A DNA stretch of 63,160 nt, the filler included, from Circinaria calcarea (lineage: Eukaryota): the NCBI GenBank assembly GCA_051942165.1. It is 3 parts of 3 records of this genome, joined end to end, with 100 filler letters (N's around TTAATTAATTAA, not from the genome) between each part and the next. Parts side by side here need not be neighbours in the genome. Positions count along the whole stretch, not along the records: positions 1 to 21,035 come from JAVECS010000152.1; 2 more parts are not named here. The stretch is one strand, 5' to 3'. Made by a program: the position numbers and the translations under genes. The notes under the pieces were generated by a model. It made no database searches, was not told the DNA's origin, and saw only the letters and a list, made by a program, of their open reading frames with translations. Within the stretch, counting starts at the first letter, position 1. Each line of letters opens with the position of its first letter. This document shows, one piece after another, positions 1 to 27,659 of the stretch.

Positions 1-1532
1 TGAGATATGCGTTGACAGCCTGTAGCGTTGCTCGAGACGGATTCGCATCAGGCTTCGAAGCCATGATCCATCCCAGACGGCGACGGATGTAGGTTTTGTC
101 GATTTCTTGGTCGTATGGATGAGGTAGTAACGAACCTATAACACATGGTAGAGTCAGTCTTCCCAAACAGTCTCCTCAGAACACACGTATAGTGTCATAC
201 CGTCATCTGCAAAGTAGAGACATAACACAGCCAAAGCTACTCCGACGGAGAGATCTCGCCCTGTGGAGCAAGCTAGCAGTATAGTTGTTTGTCCTTCTTT
301 TGATAATGCAGACTTTATGAACGGCTGGAGGCGCTGCAACTCCGTTCGTAATGCCCTACTGCCAAGTTTACCACTGCCACAGTCTAGATAGAGCGTGCGA
401 GTTGCATGGTCTTCTTCCTCCGTCTTTGAAATCTTAGTTGATGGCCGTGGTATTCCGCATATAATGCTGCAACTGAATCCATTGCCCAAGTTTTCATTTG
501 CATTCAACGCCCCGAGGTGGACTAGATTCGTTGGCCTAACGACGGCTGTTGAAACCCTTATTTTCTTTGCTTGCTCTTCTGCAATGAGTCGATTTATCAT
601 CTCGGGTATTTCTTCTTCGGGAGTCCTCATCAACTGCTCTTTACTCTGCCAAAACATGACGGGAGTCAGTCCATGAGACCACCCTTCGCTATCATCCCCA
701 GCCCCCTGTATATAGCCCCCTTCCGACATTTCAGCCCCATCAATTCTCCTTGATGCCGTACAACACATTATATAATGATATTCTCCATTTCTCGGTACAG
801 TCGGAAGAGGCTCCTGTTGTGTAATCCAGACAGGTAAGAGTGGTTTTGTCAGTTTTTCTCGTAAAGAGTTTATATCCAATTTTAAATCCTAGCACTCATT
901 TCAGCTAGGTGCTGTATAGTTCCACCCAGTTGCTCTACTTTTATTTCCGTAACGAAGCCCTCAAGCTTTGCTTCAATTTGGGTATGCTCCGAAGCCCCCA
1001 CAAGATCAGATGGTGTGTGCAGTAACTGGCAGTCGGTGATTTCTGGAAAGAGAAGTCTGTTCATGACTACACACCAGATGGGAATTGTCTTTGATAGCGC
1101 ATCTGGCATACTTTTCCCACGTCTGGTAGAATCGACAATGATACACCTATCTTTCAAATAGCGCTCAGCTTTGCTGTGTTCAATCATTTATAGATATTCA
1201 CGGACTCACCCGTCATGCTCCCCTATGATTGTTGCGAGTTGCAGATTCAGTCGCCGCGTGCTGAATCTCCATTGGCCTTGGTGCCCATCTGTGCTCTTAA
1301 AGTACGCACTCCCGTGCTTTTCAACCGGTGCAATGTACCAACTTCCGCATCGTTCGTTGGCTACTATTGGAAGACCATAGTTATCTGCGACACCCTTTAC
1401 AAATTTGGCATCTGCTTCAATGGAGCGCAAACGGTTCTGAACGGATAGCGTTGATCGCTTTAGGGCGGCGAGAGTCTTGGAGAAGTTGTCTGACGCCGTT
1501 GGGAAGATTAAACCTTCGATGGAGCTGGGCAT
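1..1532 (-). CDS. RIT1: tRNA A64-2'-O-ribosylphosphate transferase (Rit1); 4 exons (1532-1210, 1146-939, 888-201, 135-<1), 3' end runs off the window
   Basis: Rit1 motifs LSVQNRLRSI, ANERCGSWY, YFKSTDGHxGQWxFSTRRLN, IIVDSTRRGKSMPDALSKTIPIW, GYIQGAGDDSEGWSHGLTP, CxxGRDLSVGVAL and C-terminal NPSRATLQAVN; GT-AG introns join the three listed ORFs in frame. Confidence 0.95.
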
Positions 1533-2859: not shown

Positions 2860-3687
2860 TCAGTTACGCGGTATACACGCTCGGAGATCCTTGGAGCTGA
2901 CATTGGCGTTTTCGCGACGGATGGCTTCTAGAAACTGTCCTCGATCTCAGACGATGAGGTAGCCAGTATATTCACATACTTTTTAGCTAGATGGTTGTCT
3001 ATATCAAAACAATTTGGCCAGCATGGGACCATACTGGCCCATCCGTGTGAGGAAGCGGTTTGAGAGGGCACAGCAGAAACGTAAACTTCGGCCGGTGCTG
3101 TCTTGAAAGGCCTCTGAAAATGTAAGAAAGTACAGCACAAGGTAAGAAACTGATCTAGTACTTAGGTCTTTTGAGCCGAGAGAAAGAATGCCACATCAAT
3201 TCTCCTAGACTTTTCGCCGCTAGGTAGTCTGGCATTGGTTAACAGCATGGATGGTGTGGCTGTTCGAGCAACCCGCCATAACTCCTTTGACGGCTCACTT
3301 CCTTATCATTTCTCGCCAAATGTCGTTATGATAAACTGCGGGTACTACTGGTTATTAACCAACCTTGAAAAAACGACTCGGACGTCCGGCGGGCGCTGAC
3401 TCCACACTTGATCCATCTCATCATAATACGCAAAACTTCCCTGGATCAAATACCGCACGTCTCTTTTCGGGTACCGGTCTGCTCCGGTCTTGCAGCCTAG
3501 GTCTGCTATTCTTCTTGCTGGCTTTGATTTGTATGGATGTAATCCGAGGCTCAAATTTCTCGTACGCTGCTAGCAGTTGCAGTTCTTGTGGCACTAGGTC
3601 CCTTGACAAATCAGCACCTTTTGAGACCAAAGTCACACGGCCACGTACTATTATTTGAGGCTTGGGTGTCGACGTTAATATTGCCAT
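2860..3687 (-). pseudogene. Array copy P1: degraded paralogue of the unknown tandem family
   Basis: Reverse strand gives RDVRYLIQGSFAYYDEMDQVW|intron|VPAVYHNDIWREMI (3344-3300) and, across frameshifts, WSHAGQIV-DIDNHLAKKYVNILATSSSEIE-LEAIRRENANVSSKDLRACIPR (3035-2870); several frameshifts and stops; a weak C-terminal remnant may lie at ~2150-2250. Confidence 0.8.
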
Positions 3688-4426
3688 ATGGATTGGTCAT
3701 CATCCACCTCCACGTCAGTTTGACTACTCTCTCGGATCACCTTTATTGAGTCAAATCTAGCAGCCTTGCCACAGGAAAAGCACTATCTGCTATGCTAGGG
3801 ATTTGCTGGATGTAAGTAGCCTCAGGTTTGGAGGTATTTTACGAGAGGAAACAAAGCACAGCCGTAAAGTTGTGTTAACCAACGTTTGGAATATATTGAT
3901 AACGGACCTCTGAATAAGTCGTATCGCGGTCTCGGTGGTGTGAGTTCGATGTTCAAACAGCTGGCGAGCTGCCGTCTTCTGCTGTCTGGGATGATGATAA
4001 TGTTGTAGGTGGAGCACGCGATGGTAAGCACCATTGAAGGTAGAGATTGACCGTTGTTTAGCCGCTAACTGTATCTAGCGAGACTACCAAGGGTTTCTCC
4101 GAGAGGTCGGCCCTATTATCAGCCAGTACGTGCTTTTCTAGCCTTGGTGCTGTTATAGCAGGACTCACCGAAGCCCAAATGGTCGAATGGCGGTACGAGG
4201 TTCACGAATAAGACCAATACTAACAGTACTAAAAAGAGGTATTCACAGACTAAAAGGGGTGATATACTCAGTGGGGCTAAGCTTCCATTGAAATCCGAGA
4301 AACTGCGAAAAGAGGTATAAATTCCATGAGCGATGAGTCTGTTCTATTCGTCTATCGATGGTTTATTGAGACATGCCCAGGCGGTGCTCTAGTTGACTTT
4401 CTCTGACCTACAGAAATTTGGCAGAG

Positions 4427-6481
4427 TTACATTGCCGAAAACGCAAAGCGTTTTAAAGAATAAGGATCAAAACCGAAGTACTCATCCTCTTCGGCATATG
4501 GATCGAACGTGTCGGTCTCATAGTGTTTATTATCGCCCTCAACCTCGTTACAATTCTCCTGCGGGAGAACTGCTCTATGACCTGGTTCTGCTTGCTGCCC
4601 TTCCCCTAGCACCTCATCCATCGCATATCCCAAAGAATGGGTGTGTGATTGCGCGCTTTCAGGATTGTGGTCGCTTTCGGACTTTTGGCGGTTGATTGCC
4701 AATGGAGAATGCATCGGTATCGTGGTGATGGTGGAGAATGAGGAGTTGTAGCTCGAAGCTAAGTAAAGCTCCGGAGTATTCGTGCTGCTCTCCACACCCA
4801 GGAGAAGTGGGTCAATGGCGGATATTGCGAGTGCAGCACCTCCATGTGCGTCGTCGCGTTTGCTTCCTTCACCCGGCGTTACTCCTTGAGGTACAGCCCT
4901 GTAAAAGCCGCCAATGTTGCGGTCGATCAAACTGTTCTGTCGAGGTAAAGAGTGTTTCACTGCCCTGCGCTTTCCTGCCTTCCTATTTGGCTTCCCTTCA
5001 AGTCAGTCAGGCTTCTTCGTGGCACTGTCGTGTGATTTGTGGTTCTGGTTTGCGATATTCACCTGATCTCGTCGCAACCGCTTATGACCAGCTTCCGGAT
5101 CTCCATGAGCGGGATCATCAGAGTTGGAGAAGCCCTGGTCACCTGGGCAATCACCCACGGCATTCTCAGCTTCACAGCGCTTCCGTTTGGTGTTCAGCGT
5201 CTTGGCCGCAATTTCCGACTCTTGCCTAGCCAGTATAGTATAATGGATTAGCGCACTGCCTTCTGTCTGACCACTAGGTGATAATGCAGCTCGGTTGCGA
5301 GCGCGGTACTTGAAGTTCCCTTTATTCGGCAGTTGCATGTCCAGGATCTCTTCTCCAGTCAAGTCGCTGAACCCTTGAGTAGAATTGGCTGCCACCACGG
5401 GGCTGGAGCAAGTTCACCAGATAACTCTCAAAGACATCGCTCCCTGCCCTCTTTGTCCACGAAAGGCATCCGGCCAGTTCCCTGAGCCGTACCATACGCA
5501 CTGAGATGGCATCTATGCTCCACATGGGTTGCTTGCCGGGACCAAGGTGATGTGGCATTCTCGCTCGAAAGTCTTAGGACTAATTCGAGGATCAAGTCGC
5601 CTGATTGCTTCCATATTGTACGCTTCCATTTGTGAGGAGCAAGCGAGTGGTATCTCGGGATAGTCCTTTACTGGATGGTTGTCGACGTCTAGCACAATCT
5701 GATCTTCATAATACCATGGTTCTGCGGTTTTTCCACGTTTGTTCCGCAGTTGGGTTGATTTGAAAGAGTATCGGTGGGCGATGTTCTCGATCGGAGCCCC
5801 CTAGTCAAATCAGTAAGGAATATCTTTTTAATCTCTTAAAGAAGTACCAGTCGCGCTAACTTGCCAAGTAGCACCTTACATCAAGGTCATCATGCCCTCG
5901 AGCTCGTGGATGAGCTAGCTATTATTAGAATTTTGTGCTTACCTGAGCGTTGGAGCTACAACACTTACTATAGGTACCCAGTTGATATGCCGCCTCGATG
6001 AGCTGCTGTCGAACTTGCTCATGGTAGATTGCGGGTTCTAGAAGCATGAGCATTGACGTAACAGTTAGGGAGGGCTAAGAGAACTTACGCCAATACTCTT
6101 GAATATTCTTACGGTAGTGCATGCCACTACTTTCATCGTATCTCACTTGTCCTCTAAGTCTGCTGTCTGAGCCTACTGGCCTTGTCAGCAGCCTGAGAGA
6201 AATACAGATCTCAGCGTCTGCATTCTCACCATTTGGAACATTGGGCATACTCCCCATTGGTCCGTCGTCATTGGCTATGTTTACATGGTCTTGTGGGCCA
6301 TTCTTAGCTTCGTCATCAACATACAGGGTTAAGCGACTCACCACAACTCTGGTTTACTAGAATTTCATCCGTCCTAGTTGGCGACCTATATGTCCGAGCT
6401 GAAGGAGTCAGTGACGATCAATCCATGTTGACTGAGACTGTGGTTACCCGCAACACCTACAGCACCTGCAACAGCGAGCAT
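4427..6481 (-). pseudogene. Array copy P2: near full-length pseudogene of the unknown tandem family
   Basis: Exons GQVRYDESSGMHYRKNIQEYW | EPAIYHEQVRQQLIEAAYQLGTY | ... PWYYEDQIVLDVDNHPVKDYPEIPLACSSQMEAYNMEAIRR; frameshifts near 5575 and 5400, in-frame TGA at 5003-5005, TAG in the ~5860 exon; putative start ATGCTCGCTGTTGCAG|GT at 6481 mirrors P3 exon 1. Confidence 0.85.
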
Positions 6482-7548
6482 GATGGGTTCGAGCTAGAGA
6501 GCTTCCACTTCAAAGGCCGACAGAATGTAGCAAGCCCGCCATAAGCTTACGATAATGTTACAGCGAAGAGCTGTTGGAGTATGCGAGAAGCAGGTGGAAG
6601 ATCCACTTCAATGTTAAGGAACTTCGGAGAAAGTCAGGCGAAGTAATTGGTATGGGGTGGCTGGGAAAATCGCCGCTTTCAGAGTTATCGGGTATATGAG
6701 TCTATCTCCCTGCCAAGCACTAAACCCTATTTAGGCGAATTATCCAGGGTTATTCTCGCCAACTTTATTCGCGGCCAATTATTAGGCTTTAATACTATAT
6801 ATTTATAAGGACATGCGCCGACTCCCGGAGTTCAGTGTCGAGGAAAAGTCCGAATTGAGAAAAATGCAAGATTTATGATAAAAGACTATTGCGGAGTATA
6901 GATATTAGGAAAGTCCAACGGTCTGGAATTTACATTAACCTGAGCATGAAGGAATGGGCCTCAAGCGGGGAGCAAAGAAGTCCTTTCTGCGTGGATGCGT
7001 TTATCCAACATAGTAAAATACGCCTTCCTAGGTCACCATGGCACGATCAAGGAATAACAAGGGGTATCTTAAAAGACAGCGTAAACTACCGATGAGCTTA
7101 TCTACGGAAGGATTAGAGAGGTAAATAAGAAGGAAGAGTAAAGAGAGTGCTGTTATTAATGCTGCGATAAGCATTCACCGTCTAAGGGATTTAAATTTCA
7201 AAGCCCAAGCCAAGCTACCCCAAATATGATATTCCCATCACCGGACTCCTGGGGGACCAGCCTTAAAAAGAGGCCACCCTGAGTACCTGTTCTCCTTCCA
7301 GTGTCATTCTCGATCTGCTCAATCAGTTGAGCTTGCTTATTTTCGTGGTGTTAAGTGCCAGGGTATCATCCTTGAATAATGTCTCCCATAAGACCGTTTC
7401 GACTGGGATAACGATGGAAGCAGAGCAAATTTTTGCAATCAACTCTTGTTCCCAAACGAACTCCGTGAAACTGAAATGAAAGAGAGGGAGAGAGAGTTGC
7501 CGACGAATTCATGCCGGTAAGAGTGAGGCGTCCATGAAATTTGGTGAC

Positions 7549-9716
7549 TCAAATGAAGGTTCTGTGACGGCTCAGCCAGAGTATACTTTCCTCTGCGGAC
7601 GTCTGAAAATCGATTGGGCTATCATCACGTGGATAGTATGGCATCGGTGCACATGAGGCGTCGGAACCATTTCGGATATCTAGGCCTGGATGAGCATTGT
7701 GTCGAGGTTGTTCGTCGACTTCGATGCTTGGTATTAGTGGCTGACTTGGGATGAACTGCACACTGGAACTAGTGGCTTCGGTAACTCGTGCTGGTGGCAG
7801 CTTCTGACCAGGGGTTGGGATTGCGAGGCCCCGAAATTGAGGATCGATGAGTTCAAGTGGTTTCTCTTCTTCCTGTTTGCGTTCCTCTCCAACAATTTCA
7901 GGCCCAGCCACGGGAATCAAGCCGGGTCGGGAGTTGGTTGATTGGTCAGAATGCTCGGTGGCAATTGGAAGCTGCCTACCATATGCATATTGTGATGGTT
8001 CATGGTGCTGAACAGCCAATGATAGCCCATCGCTCTCAACGTCATACAAGTTGGGCTGATGTCGCTGGTCGCGATAAGGCTGGTAGTGCTGGAGGTTCCG
8101 GTTATACTCATGCTGGAAATCCGGTGCGTAGCCCGGAGAGAGCGCAAACAGGCTGGATCGATTAGAGGTGCCTCTATGATGCGATATCATAGATGCTGAT
8201 ATGCCTGATTGATTCCTTCGTCGATGTCGACGGGGTGGTAGGTCAACAGCAACATTATCTTGGTGATCCAAGTCACTGAATGCCGTCCGATGTCTATTGG
8301 TGTTCTCCTCACTTCGTCGAGTTCGCTTTCGACGGTGTTCGACAATAGGGCTCGCAATTATTCCACTGACTATAATAGTGTCACCTATCTCTTCCTCCTC
8401 AGCGAAGATGTTCGTTTCTATCCCGCGTAGAAGTGGTGCATGATCCCGCCTGCGCTTTTTCCCAGCTCTTACATCTTGCAGACTCACATCTGGTTCCGTA
8501 TGGGGATCCAGAGCTCGGGCTCCAGCTCGTTCCGGAAGCAGGTCCTTATTCAAGAGCGATATGCCCTTCAGTTCCTCTTTCGTGAGGTCCCTGAAACCTT
8601 TGGAGCAGTTAGATTCCAAACAGGACGCCGGATAGAGCTCCACCATAAAGCGACGGATCGTGTCGCTTCCAGCTTTAGTATCCCAGCACAAAGAGCCGGT
8701 CAATGTTCTGAATCGCCATTGACGATTCGACAATGCTGTGACGACACATAGTGGTCTCGGGTAGCCCTCCCGGTGCTTTTTATTGGGCATCCTGGCGCGG
8801 AAGTCTTTGTGGGTGATGTACGCATTGGTACGCCTGATAGCCTCCATCAGGGCTCCTTCCATCGCTTCGGCACAAGTCAAAGGGATTTCCGTATATGATT
8901 TCACAGGATGGTTGTCGGGATCAAGGACAATCCTCCCATTGTCATACCAGTGTTGTGCCCTTGACCTAGGTCTCTTGTCTGGTGGGAATATCGCGTTCAA
9001 AACATCCGGCCACTGGTTTCTGGATGCAAATCCCCTATTAATATTAGCGAGGAGGAGTTACTTGGAGTATAGCTCCTTACCAAGACTTTTGGCTTGCGAG
9101 ATAAGATGTTCTATCCAATGGATTTTCTCCCTTCGCGCGTGGGTAATCTGACCAAACTTAGACAAGTGTTAACCTCAACAGGCATTGACTTACCATAAGT
9201 ACCGAGTCGATCAGTTTCTTCAAGCAAACGAGCTCGAATATCATCGTGGAACACCGCAGCTTCTGAGTAAAGAAGTTAGCTTCTTGTAGTACGTACAGAG
9301 GGATAGCAAAGGACAGTATCGAGAAGGAACAGAGATAAGCACCAATGGAAACTAAAGATCAACGTACCCCAGGCGTTGCGATCGTCTTTGCGATAAAACA
9401 TATTCCCGGCCTGGTCGTATCGGATCTGATACTTGGAATTTCCATCTGAGCTTGTTGGCTTGTTGTGCTCTGCTACTTTGAGTGCTTGTTTCGATTCGGT
9501 CTTAACACAGAGCCGTGTTTGATCATCGGTCTCATCTGCAGGATATTACAACGACGAAGGTGTACGAATTGATTCTCTTCTTACCCTCGACACTCTGCTT
9601 AGCTACGTCTGAAGCATGACGTCTGTTGTTGTTTCCCCTGGCAGCTTGTGCTTCGCGAACCGTTAGGATTCATGAGTATTATGGGGAATTGTAAGCTTAC
9701 CTGTAACAGTTGCCAT
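7549..9716 (-). CDS. Array copy P3: apparently intact ~600-aa protein of unknown family (6 exons) with conserved core, basic NLS-like clusters and a long disordered tail
   Basis: ATG at 9716; five GT-AG introns give an open frame MATVT-AQAARG...-...QIRYDQAGNMFYRKDDRNAW-EAAVFHDDIRARLLEETDRLGTY-DYPRAKG...SQKSW-GFASRNQWPDVLNAIF, joining the 483-aa ORF 7549-9000; KKRRR, RRKRTRR and RRHRRR clusters. Confidence 0.85.
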
Positions 9717-10559
9717 AATGGAGCCCGAAATCAGGTTGCCTGAAGAAAGGCCCACAGTGTGTAAGGGCCTCGTCATTTGGGCTGGACGCCTTCAGTTACA
9801 CAGTGTTTATCTATACAAGCTTCGTTGGTATCGGCGTTCTCTCGCAAGTATTCTCTGCTCTTTGCTTCTGTTCAAATCTTTTCAAATCTGATCTAAAGCT
9901 TGAGACGGGAAGTTGCGATGAAGCCAATGGTGATGGTGGAAGAGAAAAGAATGGGGGGGTTGGTTGTTACCGGATATATAGATCATCGGCCTAATGCCCT
10001 AAGCGAGAAGCATTGACCCTACGTACATGGGGTGTTGAGTTCGGGGAATAGGTCACCGAATTGGAGGTGGCTGGCTCGCAAGTTATGGCATGGTGAACGC
10101 GCCTGCTCGGTCCTAATGGGAAGCTCGTCTATTGTTTTGAGGGATATACAAGTTGTCTGTAGCGAATAAGTCTAAAAAGGGGCTTCCTATACGAAGGATT
10201 TATTGTCATATATATTGGACCTGGATATTTTAAGCACGGGAGAAGGTAGATGTGTACCGGGTCTATTGGGGGAAAAGGGGGGTGACAATAAGGTATATTA
10301 TGTCCCAAAGGGGCTATAACAAGTAGGTTTTGGTAGGTCTCCTTTCAGATGAAACGATTTAATGAATAGTTACTAAATAAAATAATGGGCCACAATATGG
10401 GTTTATGGCTTAATCATCTTCGCGCGGGCTAATCTCTTCACAAAAATTATCCTGTTGATCTCTGTTTGCTTTCAGCCAAAGACTTCCCCATTCACGCCAG
10501 CTAGGTTGACTTCGACGGTTGGGGGCGCTTTGCTGCACCTGATACATAATGGGAAGAAC

Positions 10560-10800
10560 GCGAGAACAGCATCAGACTTGGTACACTATCCTGAGCTCCA
10601 AAAGATCCGTAGAAGTCCAGCCATATATCTTGAATGCTATACTCCTGGTCGACGTCGTAGGCAGTCGGGTTTCTAACTGGGTAGTTTTGGTGTGTCCACG
10701 TCGTGAACTGTCTCGTGTCGGCGCCAGAGATGCCGAAGTAATGGATGGCCTCAGTCTCCCCCTGGGCGTACAACAACGAATATCGTGCTTGGAGACAACA
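10560..10800 (-). pseudogene. Array fragment P4: isolated C-terminal module
   Basis: LYAQGETEAIH...DTRQFTTWTHQNYPVRNPTAYDVDQEYSIQ aligns with P5 LYAAGDTEAH...PTREEYMALTSQDAPATDPASFCVDQWATIQ. Confidence 0.6.
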
Positions 10801-11179
10801 TTAGTGTCTGAATAGATGTACAAATTTCTGGAAGCGAGTTCTATTAAAAGCGGCTTACCTCGACCAAGACGTTACTCCTATAATTCTTAAAAATCGGATG
10901 TTTTGAGGATGTGAGAAAGCGAAGGGCAAGGGGGAACGTCCATCAAAGGGTGAAAGAGAAGGAGTATGCAAGGTATACCATCCTGACAGAGCTGTAGTGA
11001 CTATAACCCTAGCAAGCTCTCTCCCCGAATGGTTTGGAGATGGAGGATCTGTTAACCAGAGGATCAACTAGTGCGGGAAATTTTGATTGACTAATGATAT
11101 GCAAAATTATTATGACAAATAATGCTACTTCTCTTAGCTAAGTTATCCCTCCCCGATCTCACTCAAAAATCGCTTGCAC

Positions 11180-12110
11180 CTAGTCATCGAAATCAATCTC
11201 GATTCCCAAAGGGGCTTCACTCCAGACTATGCGTCGTCGAGAGCATGCGATCACAGAGATGAGACAGATAATCTCTTGGTGATGGTTAGGAGTTACGTAG
11301 GACTGCGAGAATACTTACTGGATGGTAGCCCACTGATCAACACAGAACGACGCTGGATCAGTGGCAGGAGCATCCTGAGAAGTCAAAGCCATATACTCTT
11401 CCCGTGTAGGTTCAACAAGGTAAAACACCGGCAGCTGGTGTGCCTCGGTATCTCCAGCGGCATAGAGAAACCATGCCTCATGATCAGACACCACGTCCGC
11501 AGTGAGTTCCTCGAGGTCACCAGTTACGTATTCATCCGCTGCCAATCCTTGCTTTTCCTCGAGTCTTAATTCTGTGTTCTCGTCAATGATGAGCTGTGAT
11601 TCAGCTGAGAGGTCCGATGCTTCCTCGAAGCTGGCATGCGCTGCAAGATCTTCTCCTTCAGCAGGCGTAACCACATCGTTCATGACTTGGGATGACGCAG
11701 GATATAGCGTCTCGACTGAGCCTTTACTGGCATGCACATCAGTCTCAGAATTCGTCGAGATTTTGCGCTCTCAATATCTCGGTTGTTTTTGGCCTCCATT
11801 GTCTCTATCGGACTTTGCATTGAGCCTTGGCACTTCGCCAGCGCTACATCATAAGCTTGGTTTTCTTGAACGCTGAGAAGTCTTTGTCATACCGGGTTCT
11901 CTCGGGATTCTAACCCACGCCAACCACGGCCATCTCCGCGATTTCGTAAGGATAAAGATCACGGTGCTCCTTAAATAGAGTAGCAAATCATACACAACAC
12001 CGGTAGATTCTCGTCCAAATATGATTTGAGGGCCTCACTACTCTCCTTTTTGTTCCAGGAAACATCCCAGACCTCTCCCTGAAGCGCGTCATTCTCATCC
12101 CAACTGTTAC
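11180..12110 (-). pseudogene. Array copy P5: 5'-truncated paralogue (second half of core, acidic tract, C-terminal module)
   Basis: VGMRMTRFRERSG / SWNKKESSEALKSYLDENLP / KEHRDLYPYEI across frameshifts at 12110-11940; ORF 11315-11737 carries the acidic stretch and EPTREEY...TDP...DQW, followed by TAA. Confidence 0.8.
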
Positions 12111-12319
12111 AATTCGAATTGGGTCTCGACCAGGATTCTGTTGGAAGTTATAGGGCTTACCGAAACATGTGTTGCATAGGAGGTCCATGCTCAAAACTTC
12201 CTACACATACCATAAAAGCACTTTTCATTGCGTAGATAGCTTAGATAGTTACACACGTATATAGCATGAATGCCACCACACATTACTGCATGTTCAACAA
12301 ATGCAGCCTTTAGTATATA

Positions 12320-13730
12320 AATGGTTCGTCCCCCGCTCTTTCTGTAGAAGGTCCGAGGGATCCCGTGATAAGTCCCCCCCCCGTTATCTGAAAAGGCGAT
12401 GCCCTTACCGCCGCGTCGGTTCAATAGGCTCCCGATTAAATATAATATTATTACCATAAAAATTCCGTTCCGAAAACCACCTAATGGCGAACCCCCTATT
12501 CTATTATTCGATTTCGTCGGTATTCCAGCCGTTAATATCAACTTTATGCTCATCCGTTACGCCTTCGCCGGTATTATCGGATATAATTTCGTTTCTGATT
12601 TCGATTATCCGGGGGTGTAATACCCTATTTCTCTTTAATTTTGCTTTCCTCTTATGCATATTAACGACTCATTAGTTATCCCGAGCTTTAATATAGGCCT
12701 CGAATTCGCTCGGTATTATCATGATTAGCTGGGCTAATATTAGTTTCTGAGTGGTTAGCTGGCTCTCTTCCATAAAACTAATTAAAATATCCGCCTCCTC
12801 TTCTCGGAATCTTGTACGCCTCACACTTAGAGCATTCTCATTAGCCAAGTGGTCTGACATCATTCGGCCCTGGAAATCTTTCGAAGTGATTGCTCGGTTT
12901 GTGCGGATGATTTCTTCCTGATGCCATCCTTCAATCTGGGACGAGCATGTCAGGGGAATTTCCAGATATTCCAGGACTGCATTGCAGTGGCAGTCGAGAA
13001 CGATGAGGCCATTTCGCACCCAGACAGGAGCCTTCGTCCCCACGTTCTGTGGAGTTCTCATGTATTGAAAAACAAGCGGAGGGCGTGACGATCGGTCGCT
13101 TCCCCAGTGTTCCTACCATTGGTCAGTGTTTGAAGTTCGGGTAAGCCAGTATCAACTTTCAAGCAGGTACCTACTTGTTCCTTGTGAAAAGCGGTCACAT
13201 CGTCTGGATGTCCACCTTTCTCACTTTCATGAGCTACCCTCTGTTAGTCTGCTTTATACGAATGCTCGGAAGACGAAGAAGCAAACCACATACTGTATTA
13301 CCCTTGCTAATTTCCCTCGGCAATCAACTCCTGACGGATTGCTTCATAGTAGACTGTCGTCTCTGGATAACAATCAGTAATGCGCACGACAAACAAACAA
13401 ACAAACAAACAAACAAACAAAGATTTGATGGAAACATACTCCGTCTTTGGGTCCTTCCATTGCAAGCGGCCATGACTATCAAGTCTTGTTTGGCCGACCT
13501 TACGTGTTCGAGCAGGCTCTGCCCGGCTACGACCACCAGCCGTGCTGTAGGCTGGACGTCGGTCAGCATCCTAACACAGATATAAGACCGAAGGATCAAT
13601 CAACCGGAGGTAGTATTCGTGGTCAAAGTTTGACCTGGTCGAGGCATAATTGGGACTAGTCCTGGCATCGCCTGTATGGCTTCATGATGAGCGCCCCTCG
13701 TTCCATGTTGACATCGACCACCGGGTGCAA
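12320..13730 (-). pseudogene. Array copy P6: paralogue with internal deletion and AT-enriched, stop-riddled 3' half
   Basis: KVGQTRLDSHGRLQWKDPKT | TTVYYEAIRQELIAEGN*QG*Y | ... WVRNGLIVLDCHCNAVLEYLEIPLTCSSQIEGWHQEEIIRTNRAITSKDFQGRMM...NALSVRRTRFREEEA, then an abrupt jump at ~12790 into an acidic ...GWNTDEIE**...EPTRR* segment. Confidence 0.8.
13389..13421 (+). repeat. (AAAC)n microsatellite, about 8 units, inside an intron of copy P6
   Basis: acaaacaaacaaacaaacaaacaaacaaacaaa read directly. Confidence 0.95.
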
Positions 13731-14269
13731 CGACTACATCGTGCTGAGAGTTCTGCACTCTATACATTACTGATCTATATCTGTTTGATCAAGTCTGTAT
13801 CGTAATGACTTTGAATGCTTTGGTTGTGGTGGAGATTCTCAGAATATGGGGGTGATGTTGGGGGGTGGAAAGTGTGTCGGGGGTGACGGAGGTTAAGAAG
13901 GAAAAAGACAAGGTGGATGAAGGAAATGGTGTTAACTACCGACACCATTCCACGGCACAAAAGTACAGCGTTATATTGAAGAAAGGGGTACTCGAGCTTA
14001 CGGGTCTAAGTCTAGACACTGCCAAATAGTCCACTATAACGCCTCGCTTAGGGTGCTCCAGCTTTGAGGGCGGTAATCTAGTCTCCATACTGACGGATAA
14101 AGACCTTCCATGAGCGGTTGAAGCCTACGGCTTCTCCCAGAAGTCCGCTGGAAGCAACTGTGTAGGGTTAATCGGTGACAGCTTGCTTTCTGGGATAAAT
14201 CCTTTCCACGCTTTGTTGTACTCTGCGAGTCGAAAGCGCCATACAGGCGGGATGGTCAGAATCCTGAAA

Positions 14270-14430
14270 GTTTCCCTTTTCAAGAGCGATATGTCCTTCA
14301 ATCCTGTTTTGTGAGGTCCCTGAAACCTTTTGAGATATTCGCTTCCAAACATGACGCCGGATAGATGTTCACCATATGTCGCCGAATCGTATCGTTTCCA
14401 GATCTGGTATGCTAGGAAAGGTATCCAGAT
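14270..14430 (-). pseudogene. Array fragment P7: ~150-bp core-domain piece most similar to P3
   Basis: DTIRRHMVNIYPASCLEANISKGFRDLTK vs P3 DTIRRFMVELYPASCLESNCSKGFRDLTK; DNA alignable with 8548-8696 (shared caagagcgatatg, gtgaggtccctgaaaccttt, gacgccggataga). Confidence 0.9.
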
Positions 14431-16311
14431 GATATTTCCAATAGGTCAACAGGATCTGTAAAGAGAAAACCTGCTTTATGACAGAAATACAAAGCTTGAC
14501 CCCTCAAACTCGACTACGCATTCACCAGAGGAAAAACCTGCTATCGCCACTTCACGGCTATATTCTCATATATATATAAAGAGGAAGTCTCAAGCAGCTG
14601 GGATTCCTGTGATGGGAACTACGACTATATGCCACAGGATCACTGGTGGATTATGCATACACGCTTCACGAGTTACGCATGCATGCTTCACCACCTTGTG
14701 AACACTACTACGCATCCGCTGCTGGATTTAGTCTCGGCCCGTGGGCCATATGCATCGCTCGGGAGTGCGGATTAAATAGTATAACTGCTGCACGTTTCCC
14801 TTTAATCTCACCATACAAGCCATACAAATTACTCGAAAGCGCGAACCAAACACTGCTATGCATCTACGATAAGGCCAAATCTCGACAGGCTCTAAGCATA
14901 CCTATGACTCCAGGGGTCTGAATCAAACACTGCGTTCAGTTCCAATAGGGCCATATGTATAGCTCCGGAAGCGAGGATCGAATACCAGGTATTACACATC
15001 TGCATCTAGACTCTATTTCGGCATACAACTATTACATCCAGCTCTGGGCGCGAAGATCAAAGCTTGCTACACATCTGTGTTCGGACTCAACCGCGACCAT
15101 ATAAGCCCTACACATGGCTTTGGGAGTGGGCATGTCACAACTACGTTTGCCTTCAATATCCGGCATACGAGCTCTATCTACAGTTTTGGGAGTCGGATGA
15201 GTCTAACATGTTGCTTCTACGCTCTGAGGAATAGCTACATTCGAAATAGGGAGTACTCTCAGCTTGGGAACAACACTCGTTGTGACACAGGTAACGCGAT
15301 TATTGGTGAAGTATTAAAATGACGGCAGCACGGTATGGGGAGACACAGCTTGTTATGTGTAAGCATCAAGGTATTATTCTAAAATCTCCTATATAGCCAT
15401 TTATAAGAGCCGTGAAACAGACCTTCTACCTAATAGGGCTTCAGCCGCATATAAAAAAGCCTACGACATAGCTATTCCGAAACACATCCCCATTCTATCA
15501 ACTCTCTATTACAGCCATATACACTCTAATCATCAAACCGCCTGCACATTCAAACTCCTAATTCGTCATATCTCCCACCAAGACGCACAAACCCGGTTCT
15601 TTGTCGTCTTCGGGGTTTGTATCAAATTTCATTACAAGCAGAGACACTTAAGAATAAATGAGATCATACAGGCTGTTTCCGGGTGGGAAGATCGATGTAC
15701 GCGTTTTACCTGTCGAGATCTCAGGTTATGGTCTAAGGAGCGCCTGATTATTCTAACCTCTCCTTTTCCCTAAGGGTTTTGGGAATGGGGATAGATGATT
15801 GGGGTGTGAGAAAAACGTGATTTGTTATACCGAGTCTAGGGATGACTCTAGGGAGACTTACGACATATGTGTGGTTGTTGTAGCCTACTTTTGTAAAATG
15901 GTGATTAAATTCCGGCGGTACAGCGGCGGCGATGGTGGACTCGGCTGGAATGTTGATTCCATGGGATAGTCTTTTAATACTACGTTTAAACTTAAGGTGT
16001 TAGTTCTGGTTGGACTTTGTAGTTCTATCTTACCAAACCTATGTGCAAAAATAATGCTATTGTAAAACCAAGGTGCTTAATATACAAATGACCTATAACC
16101 TTCCAGGATAATGTCTTCACAGCCTCGACCTCGAGGGTTTTCACTCCATGGCGACATTTATCATACGATCGTTTACACTGTAGTTTGCAGTATGAAAGAT
16201 TACGCACGATTTTTCATCAAGGGGAGTTACTGCACCTGGCCAGAAATTCGAGTATAAGCCTGTCTGCGAGGACCATAACATTCTACCCTCCATCTAAAGG
16301 AAACCCCATCT

Positions 16312-17969
16312 CTACCCTCCCAACTTCACGTCCTCGATCAGATTCCGAACCTCCTCCGCCACCTGAACCGGCACATCCGTATTCCACTCAATACCGGCGG
16401 AGCTCGTAATCCTCCGCACGCGCACATGTGGCCACCGGGTGCGAATCAGCAGAAGCTCTCCTCTCGCGATTGACGCCCTCTCTAACTCCTTGTATTGGTC
16501 GAAGTAACTGGCGGTGGGGTCCGTCGGCGGGGCGACTTCGTGGAGCCTCTGCTGATATTCTTGCCGAGTGGGGTGGAGGAGATGCGTGATCAGAGCGATG
16601 TGCTCTTGGGAAACGGGGACGCGGCATAGGATTCCCGCCCAGGTCATGTCTTGGCTGGCGTCGATCAGGTCATCGCCAGTCCATAGCGTTTCCTCCACGG
16701 CGTCGCTGTCTGCTTCCTCATCGGCATCGGGCATGACTTCGTCGACTTCGTCGGGGTCAATCTCGCCCACGCTGAATTCGTCATCGTCGGTGATGCTGGG
16801 CTCATCCTCGTCATCCTCAAGCACGCTCTCGTCCATGCCGTCGATGCTTCCGTCAACACTGCTCTCGGAATCTTCCCGGTTTTCACGGTCGGCGATAACG
16901 AAATTGCGCCGGCTACTAAGCAAGAGACCATCACCAGTATGATCTGAACTGATGGGACCTTGTCGAGCTCCTCTGAGGCGAGCAACGTTGCTTGAGCGTG
17001 CAGCTTACTGAGCCTGTCTGACATCGTCGGCAAGTCTTCGAGGACCTGCTCGCTCCATGTAGCTCCCATCATTGACCGTCCTGATCTCCTCGACCTCTAG
17101 GTTTGTAAGGTCTCGGAAGCACTCGGTGTAATTTGCCTTGATGTATTGAGCTGGGAGGAGGTTGTCAATGTACACGTTGATGTTCTGGCTGCCCTCTTTT
17201 TGCTTCCATGAGATACAGCAGGCTTCGACTCTGTACCTTCGCATTCTGGCGCTTAGGGCATTCCACTTGGCTTGATCCTTCGGCATCCGCGCAGCAAAGT
17301 CTTGCAGCTTGATCTTCGGGTGCTGCCGCATCATGGCCTCCATGTAACAGCCTTCTAGCTGAGAGGAAAGGACCACTGGGATGTTCGTATAATTACGAAC
17401 AGGCGTACCGTCGAGGTCAAGGATGACTCTTCCGTGCGAATCACACCAGATGCCAGCTTCGTATGTCAGCTTGTCCGTTGGTCCCTTCTTGTACTGGAAC
17501 AGGATCCTTGGGCGATGCTTCCGACTTAGGCCCCACAGCTTCTGTGTGTTGGGTTAGTGGTGTCTTATGGTTTTGACCGAGACGATTACCTGGTCCTGGT
17601 GAAACGCGGTGGCATCGTGCTCTAGAGTGCCCCTGCTGCGCTTGAATTCTACTCGGCTTATTAGCAAATTCTGTCTGGCAAACAAGGTGGATGAAGGCTA
17701 TACTGTATGTGCCTATCTTGTTGGCAGCTGCCAGAAGCTCCTCCCTGATGTCATTGTGGTACACAGCAGGTCCTGTATGATGTTAGCATGATAGACGTTG
17801 AGATATGATTGTATTACTGACGCCAGATGCTGTGTTGTCCGTCGAACCATTCCAAGGCCTCATCTGTCAGACGCACACCCTCCCCTACCAGTACTGTTAG
17901 TGTGCAAGTTATGATATGTTGTTAGTGCAATGGAATGGATTAAATACCTTGAACCGTGTTGGCATCCAT
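16312..17969 (-). pseudogene. Array copy P8: full-length paralogue (5 exons) with one in-frame TAA at 17005-17007; possibly functional if the stop is spliced out or is an error
   Basis: MDANTVQ-VLVGEGVRLTDEALEWFDGQHSIW-RPAVYHNDIREELLAAANKIGTY-KFKRSRG...HQDQ-KLWGLSRKHRPRILFQY...GRVILDLDGTPVRNYTNIPVVLSSQLEGCYMEAMMR...FRDLT; ORFs 17005-17376 and 16312-16923 are in the same frame. Confidence 0.8.
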
Positions 17970-19426
17970 CTCGGTTTGGGGAGAAGAATAGGTCGTCTTA
18001 GGATTTGGTCCGTTGGTTACGGAACGGCGACACAGGTTCTAGTAAATCGCTGTCAACAACTGAGAACAAAAGGCAAACTGCGATTTTCAAGTCTAAGAAG
18101 CTAAGGCTTCGTTCCTATGTAGTGCAGTAAATGACCTGATGAACCAGTGATCTCTTGTGCAGAGTTGCGAAGAGAAATGCTTTTAGAGCTTTCAAGACTT
18201 TAAGTAGGTGTTGTGGGATCATTCGCTAAGTGGAGTGAATATGGCGACTAACCTCAGAGGAGCAAAGCAGTGGCGAGGGCCACGGACCGATACATTCATT
18301 GGCAGGGACTCATCTGACGAGCCCATGGCTGTGGCTTCATTCTCGTGGTCTCACTTTTTAGTGTTTCTCTTAGAGCTATAGATAACCGTCGCAAGATAGA
18401 AGTCTGTTACTTTAAGCATCCCGTTAGTCATGACCGATAGAAAGTTTAAATAATGAGTATTAAAGCCAAGCGGACCAAAGAAAGGTGCAGCTCTAACAGG
18501 TCCTTGGAATTCTGGAATCCTGGGGAGGATTTAACTGACACGAAAGCCCCAAAACTTACAATAGACAGAGCTCCACACCCAACCAAGAGCTGCCAAAAGT
18601 CCGTCCGTCCCACCTTTCGAGGCCTTCCCGGGGGCGGTCTACATTGCAGTCAGCCTTCAATTCGCTTTGATGGAGATTTTGCCGCCATCGATCAGAAAGA
18701 CCACTCACCCTTCCATGTCCCCATTCTCAAGTTGGATCTCCATTGGCAGCTAATGGAAGGAGGTAGTTAATCCTAGGTACCGTTACAAATTAGAGGAGCT
18801 TAGTACTTAGAAGCATGACGACCACATGCATCTAGAAACTACCTAATGTCAACACTTATTAGAACTACTCTTTGCTTTAAGAAAAGATAGCAAAACAAAT
18901 GCCAAGGACTTGGTTGGTGCAAGAAGTATCGAGATATCAGGCATATAAGTCGAGGATATTATGCATAAACTGATTTTTTCTTTCTCTAGCTGTCCAATCC
19001 GCGAAAGAACAAGGCATGGCTATGGAAAAACGCAAGATGTTGAACAACGTACCTATTTCTTTTCTCATATATATTACCATTCCTAGCAGATCCCTGATAT
19101 ATATATGACCATGATGCACCTCGCCCTGAAACATCTTGCGCTACACGGCTATATAGCTAATGTTGTAAGTTAGAGAAGACCTTGGGATTCTCAGGAACTT
19201 AAAAGGTTGGTGATGATGGCTGCTGTGAAGTTGACTAGATAGTCGTCATCCAATCGCTTACTCCCGCATCTACATACTATGGTATGGTATCCTAGCACCC
19301 CGGCGAAATGGGATATCCCAGTTCCGTCGATACCTTTGTCATTGGGCCTGGATCACACTCCTGATGACATAGTCGAATACATATTTGTCTTTCTTGCACA
19401 GATAGTATACACATCAGGGGAGCTAC

Positions 19427-21035
19427 ATGAGTCTACCATCCATTTGGAGCAGCCCTCCTTCAAACTACCGCGAGCTTGTCGATCTGTATGAGAAGCAATT
19501 CCACGCAGCAGTTGCGAGAGGGGAGCATGTTCCTTGGGTGCAGCCATACCGGTCATTTGGCGTTTATGCTGTGATATTCTACTTACTACTTCCTCCCTCT
19601 AAATCAAGATTGCTCTACTATGCAAGATATCCAATTTTTGCTTTTCTCGTGTACTGGTGCGTTATAGCGATCATAGAATGCAGAAGTCCCGCCGTTGCGA
19701 TCAGTTATGGCTTAGGTCTGATGAATACATGGGGTATATTGTGGCTTGCCTCTCTTGTCATTTTCAATGATGGACGTAATGTGTTTCGGAGGATCGAGAG
19801 GCAAGGAATTGTGCAGGCGGATATTGCAACCGAGAACAAGTCGCTGCCGCATAAAGAAGACTATCCTCAGAATGGGGTACCAAAGGGGCAGCAACTTCGT
19901 GCCCGGGCCCGCGCCAGTGCCAAACCGGCGTCAACCAAAGCCTCCAATGTCTTAACTCAAGGTAATGTTGGTAAGACTGAGGAGGATGGTGCCACTTCCC
20001 ACTATGCTTGGCAATACCTCCCTCACAAATTCTCAAACCGGATTGACTGGGTCTACGACCTCGTAACCAATTTTCGCGGTACCGGCTGGTCCCACCAAAT
20101 TACCTCGATCCCGGCTCCACCACCATCTGTGCTGCAAGACATTGAGTCCACCGAGTTCCCTGCAAAGTCTTCACCTGTAAGTTCCACCGGAAATGTCCGC
20201 TATTGCGAACCTATTTCCCTCCTCCGCCATAGGCTCATGGCTGTTATCCTTGGCTATCTAGCCATCGACGCTATAAAGATAATCATGATGCTGGACCCTT
20301 ACTTCTGGGGCCTTACTTCCTCCGCTCCACCCAACTATCTCCCCACCGTTATTACGTCCTCCGCAGTTCTTACACGCACCTACCGTCTGCTCTTATCCCT
20401 CGCCGGAACCTACACAGCCTTAAACTCCATCTTCTCCCTCGGGCCCGTCGCCTTCGTCGGCATCGTCGGTCCACGTATCCTCGGTGTACGGGCAGAAGCA
20501 TGGCAGTACCCGGACACGTACGGGAGTTACAGGACCGTCTTCACAAAGGGATTAGCCGGATGGTGGGGCGGATGGTGGCACCAAACATTCCGGTTCGGCT
20601 TCGAAGCACCTACGAAATGGTTATGTCAGAAACTCGGTTGGGACCATCGCAGTACGAAAGGCAAAACCCTGGGTATGCTCATCGCATTCGGTTGCAGTGG
20701 CTGCCTTCACACCTGCGCAAGCTACACCATGTGGCCCCCGACCCACCCCATAAAAGGTCCACTCGCGTTCTTCTGGCTGCAGCCTGTCGGAATCATCAGC
20801 CAAATGCTCCTAGCCGGCTGGATGAAGAAGCTCGGAATCCGGAACAGACTCCCCACATGGGTCCGGGGACTTGGCAACTTCATCTTTGTGCATGTCTGGA
20901 TGTATTACACAGCTCCATTGCTAATGGACGACTTTGCGGCCGGTGGGATATGGCTGTATGAACCGGTGCCGGTTAGTCTGTTGCGGGGGTTAGGGTTCGG
21001 GTTAGAGGGGCAAGGGTGGTGGTGCTGGCATGGGA
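19427..21035 (+). CDS. Membrane-bound O-acyltransferase (MBOAT_2 / wax-synthase / Tri7-like), 3' end lost in the gap
   Basis: Long intronless multi-TM ORF with FRGxGW, GWWGGWWHQTFRF and AFxxSGxLH (catalytic His) motifs. Confidence 0.85.
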
Positions 21036-21135
21036 NNNNNNNNNNNNNNNNNNNNNNNNNNNNNNNNNNNNNNNNNNNNTTAATTAATTAANNNNNNNNN
21101 NNNNNNNNNNNNNNNNNNNNNNNNNNNNNNNNNNN
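21036..21135. other. Artificial scaffold linker (N44-TTAATTAATTAA-N44)
   Basis: Exactly 100 bp, with a 12-mer placing stop codons in all six frames; identical to the linker at 42114. Confidence 0.95.
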
Positions 21136-25940: not shown

Positions 25941-27659
25941 ATGTCTCCCCGAAAACAAGCAGTCACCATCACCTTTAGCAGCCCGGGAGCCAAACCGCCC
26001 GTCTTCGTAGCTGGTACCTTCACGGAACCGCCATGGGAACCCCATGAGCTCAGCTTCGAAATTTGCACGCCAGAAGATGGTCAAGGGGATCTCCCAGAGT
26101 ATCACTTCTTCAAGACTTTCGATGTCGCGGCGGGGGAGTATCAGTATAAGTTCCGGCTCGGGCCTGGTGACTGGTGGGTGTGCGACGAGAGTGAAGAGAT
26201 AGGCACGAAGATGTTCCAGGCATCACACCTCCATATCACATCAGGCTAATAAGACTTAGTGACGGACGCTGCCGGCAACCGCAATAATATGCTCCATGTC
26301 GACATTCGAGAACTCTCCGCTACCACTGCCCCCCATGACAACAAGCACATCCAAGTTCGATTTCTTCGAGACAAGGCCGTTGGAGTAGATCCCTCCACTA
26401 TGAGCGAGACTTCAAACATCATGATTGACGATACCGCCGATGTACATAAAACAGACGTTCAAGAGAACCATCGGGTAGCTCCTGAGGCGCCGCGAGTTAC
26501 TTCGACTGTGTCTGATGCTACGTCGAAGGAAGTTTTAGGGGAACTTGCGGATTGTACCCTCTTAGTGGAAACCTCTCCGCGGGAGGGTGACGCTCCAGGA
26601 TCGGATCCTTCAAAGTCTGACGTCGTGGTTGTTCACGTGAAAGAGGTCCTGCCGCTCTCACAAAATGGTAGAGACAGGGAATCCGTGGATGAGAATATTC
26701 TGGTGGATACCGGGAAGATCTCTGACGATGATGCCGACAAGATTAGGCGATTCTTACCACAGCAGCGACAAGCCGAGATTGCAGATGAGCTCGAGAAGGC
26801 ATTAGAGGAAGATAGCCAGCAAAGTCTTAATTTCCCGGAGAAGAACAAGCATTCCCATGCCCCACTCTTCTCGCATGAGTGCCTCCAATGCCCAGAGATC
26901 GCAGCCCCTCATTGCCATAAGATATCGTCTCCTAGCAGGGAAGTCAGACGTACAATAGATGAATCACAGTATGCCGCACCTCATGTTCCCAACGAAGCTG
27001 AGATACTGGATGATCCTACGATTGAGATATTTCCTTCGGAGCCGATGGATATCCTTAAGCGTATGGCAACTCTTCACTCTCAACTCCCAGAGGACGATTC
27101 AGTCGAAGAGGATACGTCATCCCCTCTGTACTCGCCTACATTTGCAGGTCATCCATCGCCTATGTTATCTCATGAGAAGCCTGTCCATGCACTACCTACA
27201 CCAAGATACAGCTTTGATGCAGGTGAGACCCATGTCATGTGTGTGTACTGTCCCGTGACACTAATTTGTACAGAGGCAGATGGTACTTCAGACCCGCGAC
27301 CGATACTGCAATCAAAATCAAGCAGTCCTTTGAGGAGGCCCACAGCATATCGAACAGGTCATTCGCGCCACAGCTTTGAGCAAGTGAAGGAATCGGATGA
27401 AGAGGAGCGTGAACCCTTGTTGAGACCAGAAGACCCGTGGAAGCCAGCACTTACACCGCCTGCTCTCTCCCACCCCAGCAGCGAAGAGCTTCGAAGACGG
27501 AAGACAGAAGCGGATAGCTTATCTACAACCGCCTCGGTACCGGATTCTTCGGATAGCGCTGACAGAGGTTTGGGTTTCTTTGGCGCCTTCTTTGACGCAC
27601 TGTTCCATTGGTTTGGCTCATGTCTTTTTGGCCTCCTCGGCAGGAAGAGTAGGGAGTAA
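25941..27659 (+). CDS. AMPK-beta-type CBM48 (glycogen-binding) domain protein, Mdg1/Crp1-like, with long acidic disordered region
   Basis: VFVAGTFTEPPW...GEYQYKFRLGPGDWWVCD...VTDAAGNRNN; first intron 26203-26259 has a GC donor; a probable second short intron lies near 27240-27286. Confidence 0.85.

What the first reader, a model, noticed from the sequence alone, without database searches (positions are those of the whole stretch)
2860..17969. 15-kb tandem array of at least 8 highly diverged paralogues of an unrecognised gene family, mostly dead
Seen: eight same-strand copies or fragments (P1 2860-3687, P2 4427-6481, P3 7549-9716, P4 ~10560-10800, P5 ~11180-12110, P6 ~12320-13730, P7 14270-14430, P8 16312-17969) fill the gap between RIT1 and the MBOAT gene. 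They share a core W..G.IVLD.D.HPV..Y..IPL..SS..EG...EA..R....I...DF.ARMP....LS.R..RFR....C.SW..K.GS.......LLP.....N....FRDLT..E, yet are mostly unalignable by eye at DNA level. Only P3 is clearly open. I do not recognise the core as a named domain. Inference: repeated duplication, rapid divergence and frequent death of a probably nuclear protein resembles genetic-conflict loci in fungi (meiotic drivers such as wtf or Spok, allorecognition or mating/development loci). This is the best candidate here for an undescribed system, but no function is demonstrated.
Basis: partly seen in the sequence, partly recalled or inferred. Interest (0 to 1): 0.85.

Follow-up and report, generated by a model that had tools for sequence, protein, structure and literature searches.

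The report
Old gene cluster of unnamed lichen-fungus family
This stretch is an old tandem cluster of two working genes and six broken copies from a large, unnamed protein family seen so far only in lichen-forming fungi; the proteins are probably nuclear, and nothing links them to jumping genes or selfish elements.

Summary
On the minus strand, between a Rit1 gene and an MBOAT gene, profile searches find eight colinear units of one protein family. P2 is full length with two frameshifts. P1, P5, P6 and P7 are relics, and P4 is only weakly supported.

The family has no Pfam or PDB sequence match, and a very confident model found no fold match. It is not local: an exhaustive search gave 1106 clusters at 50% identity. 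All 22 named hits are "hypothetical proteins" of Lecanoromycetes.

Members share an N-module and a basic core that fold as one globule, then a disordered acidic linker with basic clusters, then an optional acidic helical C-module. They lack signal peptides and membrane segments.

The paralogues are old. Each groups with proteins from other genomes, three exon boundaries are shared, and folded modules are better conserved than linkers. I found no transposon domains, terminal repeats or RIP signature.

Best reading: a birth-and-death cluster of host genes for a new, probably nuclear, nucleic-acid- or chromatin-binding family. The function is inferred, not shown. A genetic-conflict role is unsupported but not excluded.

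The parts
154..1532 (-). Flanking Rit1 gene (initiator-tRNA phosphoribosyl transferase); marks the 3' edge of the cluster
   Evidence: Pfam Rit1_C and Init_tRNA_PT, E 1.9e-19 to 9e-39
2866..3345 (-). P1: decayed 5' relic (N-module positions 23-37 and core positions 2-83, spread over several frames)
   Evidence: E 1.6e-4, 0.007, 0.81 and 3.2e-5, colinear on the minus strand. Not found by tblastn.
4430..6155 (-). P2: full-length copy disabled by two frameshifts in the core; its intact twin P0010 lies on another contig of the same assembly
   Evidence: core in three frames; alignment to P0010; 85% identity over 159 core columns.
7549..9660 (-). P3: intact spliced gene. It equals deposited protein P0007 (621 aa): N-module, core, and a long disordered tail with basic clusters; it has no C-module.
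   Evidence: exact exon blocks; core E 1.3e-67
10650..10793 (-). P4: possible relic of a C-module (weak)
   Evidence: C-module positions 3-50, E 0.019 only. No tblastn hit.
11318..12137 (-). P5: 3' relic of a P8-like copy (core positions 90-162 and C-module positions 9-59)
   Evidence: E 2.7e-5, 0.0049, 2e-6; tblastn to P0004 residues 362-405
12786..13495 (-). P6: 5' relic (N-module pieces and core positions 2-115 in a 146-aa open frame). Its nearest relative is P0017, from another genome, at 70% identity.
   Evidence: E 2.1e-34
14301..14441 (-). P7: small P3-like core fragment with an in-frame stop
   Evidence: 65% aa identity to P3; 79% nt over 114 nt; E 1.3e-9; stop
16312..17969 (-). P8: intact six-exon gene. 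It equals deposited protein P0004 (460 aa): N-module, core, acidic linker and C-module.
   Evidence: AF2 model with pLDDT above 90 over residues 11-240 and 350-410.
19427..21035 (+). Flanking MBOAT-family gene; marks the 5' edge of the cluster
   Evidence: Pfam MBOAT_2, E 2e-14

Best explanation
The stretch is an old tandem cluster of host genes in a lichen-forming ascomycete. Its proteins are identical to entries that the source names 'MAG: Circinaria calcarea'. The genes belong to a large, so far unnamed protein family of Lecanoromycetes.

The cluster evolves by birth and death. P3 and P8 are working spliced genes. P2 was disabled recently by two frameshifts. P1 and P4-P7 are older relics.

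A family protein has four parts:
- a small strand-strand-strand-helix N-module;
- a strongly basic core of about 170 residues, which folds with the N-module into one compact globule;
- a disordered, mostly acidic linker that often carries short basic clusters;
- in many members, an acidic helical C-module.

Inferred, not shown: the proteins act in the nucleus. The basic globule binds nucleic acid or chromatin, and the acidic linker and C-module recruit or regulate partners. Paralogues would differ in targets, much as clustered transcription-factor families do.

My confidence is about 0.85 for the anatomy and evolutionary reading, and about 0.35 for the nuclear nucleic-acid-binding function.
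For: Anatomy.

Genes rather than junk:
- P3 and P8 map as exact exon blocks of deposited models, separated by gaps of 46-105 nt.
- Exon boundaries at N-module positions about 23/24, 46 and 65-68 recur in P2, P3 and P8.
- AF2 gives pLDDT 93.8 and pTM 0.90 for a natural N+core-only member, and above 90 for the folded parts of P8.

Family size and range:
- 1106 clusters at E<=1e-3, 716 at <=1e-10 and 151 at <=1e-30.
- All 22 named proteins, from 16 genera, are lichen fungi. All 6 species that I looked up are Lecanoromycetes, from both subclasses.

Old paralogues:
- P8, P6 and P2/P3 sit in different clades, each with closer relatives elsewhere: P3-P0008 67%, P6-P0017 70%, P2-P0010 85%, P8-P0005 96%.
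- Holding the six Circinaria rows together costs 282 lnL units (p-AU 4e-13).

Constraint on folded modules:
- P8 vs P0006: core 75%, C-module 78%, linker 59%.
- P3 vs P0008: core 68%, linker 28%.

Clusters recur, judged from locus tags and contig lengths:
- Circinaria tags 001434/001436 and 002908/002910.
- Trapelia tags 001196/001198 on one contig.
- P0006 and P0008 share a longest-contig length.

Nuclear and binding inference:
- Median net charge is +9 for the core, -10 for the linker and -7 for the C-module.
- 95 of 145 linkers carry a basic cluster.
- 1 of 163 proteins has a hydrophobic N-terminus, and 3 of 160 have a membrane-like segment.
- Conserved columns are rich in Arg: R143, R156, R173 and R175.

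Not mobile:
- No terminal or long repeats.
- No Pfam domain in 99 scanned open frames of the interval.
- Relics show no RIP signature.
- Ordinary genes flank the cluster.
Against: - No DNA- or RNA-binding fold or motif was recognised. The function rests on charge, basic clusters and architecture only.
- Conserved D113, D152 and N208 would also fit an enzyme.
- Only the best 150 of 1106 hits were visible, and only 22 carry names. Restriction to Lecanoromycetes is therefore not shown.
- Expression is untested.
- The two P2 frameshifts could be assembly errors in a metagenome-assembled genome.
- A second copy of part of the array (P0005, P0010) lies on another contig next to a different neighbour gene. 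I could not tell whether it is a segmental duplication, a haplotype or a second strain.
- High family turnover, with many clusters and many relics, is also what conflict-driven families show.
- The clade tested was chosen after I had seen the first tree.
Confidence: 0.6

Rival explanations
1. A genetic-conflict family, such as a meiotic driver, a toxin-antidote pair or an allorecognition determinant. Conflict would drive duplication, divergence and death.
For: - Six of eight units are dead.
- The family is very large and diverse, with 1106 clusters at 50% identity.
- Clusters recur in other genomes.
- P2 is broken here while its twin is intact on another contig.
- Linkers are highly variable.
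Against: - The paralogues are old and each has closer relatives elsewhere.
- Folded modules are conserved at 68-78% between presumed orthologues.
- No membrane segments.
- No HET, NACHT, kinase or nuclease Pfam domains.
- The flanks are ordinary and repeat-poor.
- No test of polymorphism, dN/dS or drive was possible.
Confidence: 0.12
2. An enzyme family rather than a binding protein. The invariant or near-invariant D113, D152, N208 and Arg residues would form an active site that acts on a nucleotide, nucleic acid or phosphorylated substrate.
For: - Conserved acidic and Arg columns in 80 sequences.
- A compact, very confidently predicted globule containing many ordered loops.
Against: - The long acidic and basic disordered tails are more typical of nuclear regulators.
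Confidence: 0.15
3. The open reading frame of a transposon, a virus or another mobile element, or a recently domesticated one. Its copies would have piled up at this site.
For: - The family is multi-copy, with copies at 85-96% identity on a second contig next to a different neighbour.
- Many truncated copies.
Against: - No terminal or long terminal repeats in 21 kb.
- No transposase, reverse-transcriptase or integrase domain in 99 scanned frames, 54 long relatives or 80 members.
- Paralogues are only about 35% identical, and they share exon boundaries.
- The BFVD fold search found nothing (best E 0.15).
- Single-motif scans found no relative in viral contigs or prokaryote genomes.
- No RIP signature.
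Confidence: 0.06

Closest known systems
Clustered, lineage-expanded regulator families that evolve by birth and death (for example vertebrate KRAB zinc-finger clusters); an analogy from general knowledge
   Same: Tandem same-strand paralogues of different ages. Intact genes sit beside relics. A conserved folded domain is joined to variable disordered regions, and the proteins probably act in the nucleus.
   Different: There are no zinc-finger or other known DNA-binding motifs. Conserved Cys or His columns are absent. DNA binding is not shown.
HET-domain and NLR allorecognition families of filamentous ascomycetes
   Same: Large, lineage-expanded and often clustered, with many pseudogenes. All members here are annotated only as hypothetical proteins.
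   Different: No HET, NACHT or repeat domains by Pfam. The paralogues here have conserved relatives in other genomes.
wtf (Schizosaccharomyces) and Spok (Podospora) meiotic drivers
   Same: Multi-copy, with frequent dead copies.
   Different: From recall, wtf proteins are multi-pass membrane proteins and Spok proteins carry nuclease-like and kinase domains. Here 157 of 160 members lack any membrane-like segment and none has a Pfam domain. No sequence similarity was found.
Chromodomain-like strand-strand-strand-helix modules
   Same: The N-module is predicted as three strands followed by a helix. I recall this as the chromodomain topology.
   Different: No member of 80 matches Pfam Chromo at E<=0.1. 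The module packs against the core and was not searched on its own. This is a lead, not a test.

Membership tests
Any Pfam-A family (2025 copy) | A profile match at or near the gathering score | tested here: not met
   The eight window pieces gave only hits at E>=0.098, below cut-off. 54 long relatives gave 0 families at E<=0.001. Among 80 members, no family was matched by more than one member at E<=0.1.
Any protein with a solved structure | Sequence or fold similarity to a PDB chain | tested here: inconclusive
   - phmmer best E 0.23.
- The profile search hit only the low-complexity linker, E>=0.003.
- Foldseek best E 0.97 and 0.81.
- The N+core globule was never searched alone, and AFDB was not available.
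Transposable-element or viral protein | Transposase, reverse-transcriptase, integrase or capsid domains; terminal repeats; near-identical dispersed copies | tested here: not met
   - No repeats bound the units.
- No such domain.
- BFVD best E 0.15.
- Single-motif scans of viral and prokaryote contigs found no relative.
- One 85-96% copy set exists on a second contig. Its nature is unresolved.
wtf-type driver | Multi-pass membrane protein | tested here: not met
   The highest 19-residue Kyte-Doolittle mean is 1.07 for P8 and 0.99 for P3. Only 3 of 160 family proteins reach 1.6.
Spok-type driver, or HET/NLR allorecognition genes | Kinase or nuclease domains (Spok); HET or NACHT domains (allorecognition) | tested here: not met
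   No Pfam domain in the window copies or relatives. Drive or incompatibility itself cannot be tested with these tools.
RIP-mutated repeat | TpA/ApT above about 0.89 together with (CpA+TpG)/(ApC+GpT) below about 1.03 (thresholds recalled) | tested here: not met
   Relics P5, P6 and P7 give 0.54-0.60 and 1.28-1.37, like the flanking genes. Only P4 (1.0 / 0.92) and the 12138-12785 spacer (0.99 / 0.98) meet both thresholds.
Sequence-specific DNA-binding transcription factor (functional class) | Nuclear localisation and DNA binding | not testable with these tools
   Indirect evidence only: the core has a median charge of +9, and 95 of 145 linkers carry basic clusters.

The most novel reading that the evidence does not exclude
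The family is a new-fold nuclear regulator family that arose in, and is confined to, the lichen-forming class Lecanoromycetes. Its tandem clusters diversify by birth and death and control lichen-specific development or partner interaction. Equally unexcluded: they act as a recognition or conflict system between fungal genotypes within a thallus.
Probability: 0.2. Interest if true: 0.8.

Novelty: categorically new. Interest (0 to 1): 0.55.

Why it matters
Comparative studies of lichen fungi have found few shared lichen-specific genes. One study of six genomes reports a single lichen-specific core orthogroup (PMC9232553; I read passages only).

This family has more than a thousand sequence clusters. 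It gives a very confident model with no fold match in the searches run here. Every named member comes from Lecanoromycetes, and none has any annotation. If it proves class-restricted and nuclear, it becomes a concrete, testable candidate for lineage-specific regulation in lichen fungi, and a new domain for family and structure databases.

'Categorically new' refers to the protein family only. The genomic pattern, a birth-and-death tandem cluster, is ordinary.

Tried and rejected
- Whole genome: none is held for this window, so copy number in the rest of the genome is unknown.
- Word-based protein searches returned at most 7 proteins each. They were crowded out by chance word matches and gave no picture of family size.
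- ESM Atlas: no usable hit for P0004 or for P0066 residues 8-250.
- Fold searches gave no clear match:
  - PDB Foldseek.
  - BFVD.
- Related DNA:
  - Two metagenome scans with narrower alignments matched 109 and 132 stretches, and none was a relative.
  - One viral scan matched 4 stretches and one prokaryote scan matched 9, none a relative.
  - As a result I could not do synteny, dN/dS or strain comparison.
- Sequencing runs: none was listed for window 8000-17990, and no RNA holder was listed.
- Complex prediction of P8 N+core with its own C-module: no verdict, score 0.00. The tool did not use my alignments.
- The extra 340-residue N-terminus of P0005 has no counterpart in any other family member or in the window. 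I take it as a fused neighbouring gene model and not part of the family.
- No further shared domain turned up in 153 non-module regions of 80 aa or more; similarities exist only between close relatives.
- Earlier findings of this scan: nothing by sequence, words or place.
- Literature:
  - Three full-text searches.
  - Passages of PMC6652019, bioRxiv 10.64898/2026.06.16.732702 and PMC9232553.
  - None describes this family. Sequence cannot be searched in text, and I did not look at supplements, so this is weak evidence that the family is not in print.
Full report
**What is there.**
The window is fungal. Its first 21,035 bases end at a run of N. That is the recorded length of the contig that carries two deposited proteins identical to window products. 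P0004 (460 aa) and P0007 (621 aa) are both named by the source "MAG: hypothetical protein ... [Circinaria calcarea]".

Between a Rit1 gene (154-1532, minus) and an MBOAT gene (19427-21035, plus), all family homology lies on the minus strand. tblastn with P0004, P0007-like P0001, P0005 and P0006 finds P2, P3, P5, P6, P7 and P8. Three module profiles run over all 2485 six-frame fragments add P1 (E 1.6e-4 to 0.007) and a marginal P4 (E 0.019). Elsewhere in the 63 kb they find only one E 0.042 hit. The motif equals the consensus of 80 family members.

**State of the copies.**
- P8 and P3 map as exact exon blocks of the deposited models. P8 has six blocks and P3 has five, separated by gaps of 46-105 nt. 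I did not determine splice sites to the base.
- P2 is full length, but its core runs through three frames. Its twin P0010 is in one frame.
- P7 has an in-frame stop at the conserved Trp.
- P1, P5 and P6 are partial. P5 and P6 each hold their own copy of core positions about 90-150, so they are probably separate relics.
- In all, 2 of 8 units are intact.

**The family.**
No Pfam-A family matches the window pieces, 54 long relatives or 80 members scanned one by one. There is no PDB sequence relative.

An exhaustive HMMER search with a six-row core profile found 1106 representative clusters (50% identity) at E<=1e-3, 716 at <=1e-10 and 151 at <=1e-30. Only the best 150 were listed. Of the hits I could look up, 22 proteins carry a name. 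All are "hypothetical protein" from lichen-forming fungi of 16 genera. The 6 species I checked are Lecanoromycetes of both subclasses. The class of the other genera is from recall. The tail of the hit list was not visible, so restriction to this class is not shown.

**Architecture and fold.**
Local profile searches over the stored hits show three modules:
- an N-module of about 70 residues, in 100 of 158 proteins;
- the core, by which the hits were selected (158 of 158);
- a C-module of about 100 residues, in 70 of 158.
All three occur together in 47 of 158. Many gene models are partial.

AF2 with an 80-row alignment gives P8 pLDDT above 90 for residues 11-240 and 350-410, with a disordered stretch at 255-349. 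A natural N+core-only member, P0066, reaches pLDDT 93.8 and pTM 0.90. The N-module is three strands and a helix.

Fold searches gave nothing clear:
- Foldseek against PDB: best E 0.97 and 0.81.
- BFVD: best E 0.15.
The globule was not searched alone and AFDB was not at hand. I therefore say "no match found", not "new fold proven".

**Likely cell biology.**
- Median net charge is +9 for the core, -1 for the N-module, -10 for the linker and -7 for the C-module.
- 95 of 145 linkers of 30 aa or more hold a short basic cluster.
- 1 of 163 proteins has a hydrophobic N-terminus, and 3 of 160 have a membrane-like segment.
- P3 carries runs such as KKRRR and RRKRTRR.
- Near-invariant columns include four Arg, two Asp, one Trp and one Asn, and no Cys or His.
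From this I infer a soluble nuclear protein whose basic globule binds nucleic acid or chromatin. An enzyme reading remains open.

**Age and mode of evolution.**
In a 160-row core tree, P8, P6 and P2/P3 lie in different clades, each next to proteins from other genomes. A 59-row IQ-TREE agrees. Forcing the six Circinaria rows together costs 282 log-likelihood units (p-AU 4e-13). The group was named after I had seen the first tree.

Exon boundaries at N-module positions about 23/24, 46 and 65-68 recur in P2, P3 and P8. This points to DNA-level duplication of an already split gene.

Between presumed orthologues the folded modules are better conserved than the linkers:
- P8 vs P0006: core 75%, C-module 78%, linker 59%.
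- P3 vs P0008: core 68%, linker 28%.

Clusters appear to recur. Circinaria locus tags 001434/001436 and 002908/002910, and Trapelia tags 001196/001198, each lie on one contig. P0006 and P0008 share a longest-contig length.

The second Circinaria set (P0005 at 95-97% to P8, P0010 at 85% to P2) sits next to a different neighbour. That neighbour is fused into the P0005 gene model and is absent from the window and from all other family members. Its nature is unresolved.

**Mobile or selfish?**
- No terminal or long repeats. Only P3 and P7 share DNA.
- No Pfam domain in 99 of the 132 open frames of 55 aa or more between 1.6 and 19.4 kb. The 33 frames lying in or antisense to the P2, P3, P6 and P8 coding parts were left out.
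- No RIP signature in relics P5-P7.
- Single-motif scans found no relatives in viral or prokaryote contigs.
None of the defining features of wtf, Spok, HET or NLR genes that I could test is met. Drive, incompatibility, polymorphism, dN/dS and expression could not be tested.

**Verdict.**
The "rapidly diverging conflict locus" part is not supported, but it is not excluded.

The best reading is an old birth-and-death cluster of host genes for a large, unannotated, probably nuclear protein family of lichen-forming fungi. My literature searches and the passages I read did not describe it.

Noticed in passing
window 21036-21135 and 42114-42213: There are two pairs of 44-base N runs, each pair separated by 12 bases. 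The first run starts right after base 21035, which is the recorded length of the contig holding P0004 and P0007. The window therefore looks like three pieces of about 21 kb joined or masked, and adjacency across the N runs should not be assumed. The MBOAT frame runs into the first N run.
   Followed up: partly
P0005 (protein from another contig of the same assembly), residues 1-340: The deposited model fuses a 340-residue N-terminal region to a P8-like copy. That region has no Pfam hit and no relative among the family or in the window. It is probably a neighbouring gene, which means the second array has a different neighbour from the window's MBOAT gene.
   Followed up: partly
window 12138-12785: A 650-nt spacer between relics P6 and P5 is the most AT-rich part of the array (GC 0.414), with RIP-like dinucleotide indices (0.99 / 0.98). 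It holds a 120-aa open frame (12191-12553) with no Pfam hit.
   Followed up: no
window 33763-34095 (-), inside the open frame 33562-34149: A weak match to the family's C-module profile (E 0.042, 11.7 bits). The 195-aa frame has no Pfam hit. This is probably chance.
   Followed up: no
window 22836-25013 (-), 32265-33038 (+), 45470-46498 (-), 47329-48522 (-): These are ordinary housekeeping genes in the other pieces of the window: a family-X DNA polymerase (lambda/beta-like), an Iwr1-like protein, homogentisate 1,2-dioxygenase and an alpha-amylase-family enzyme. Several long open frames have no Pfam hit (26289-27659, 29313-30626, 43368-44816).
   Followed up: no
P3 tail, window 7552-7662 (-), and relatives P0008 and P0012: P3 lacks the C-module. 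It shares a short acidic C-terminal motif (roughly DD.PIDFQ.S.E.S..WL.R) with its closest relatives in other genomes. This may be a separate short interaction motif.
   Followed up: partly
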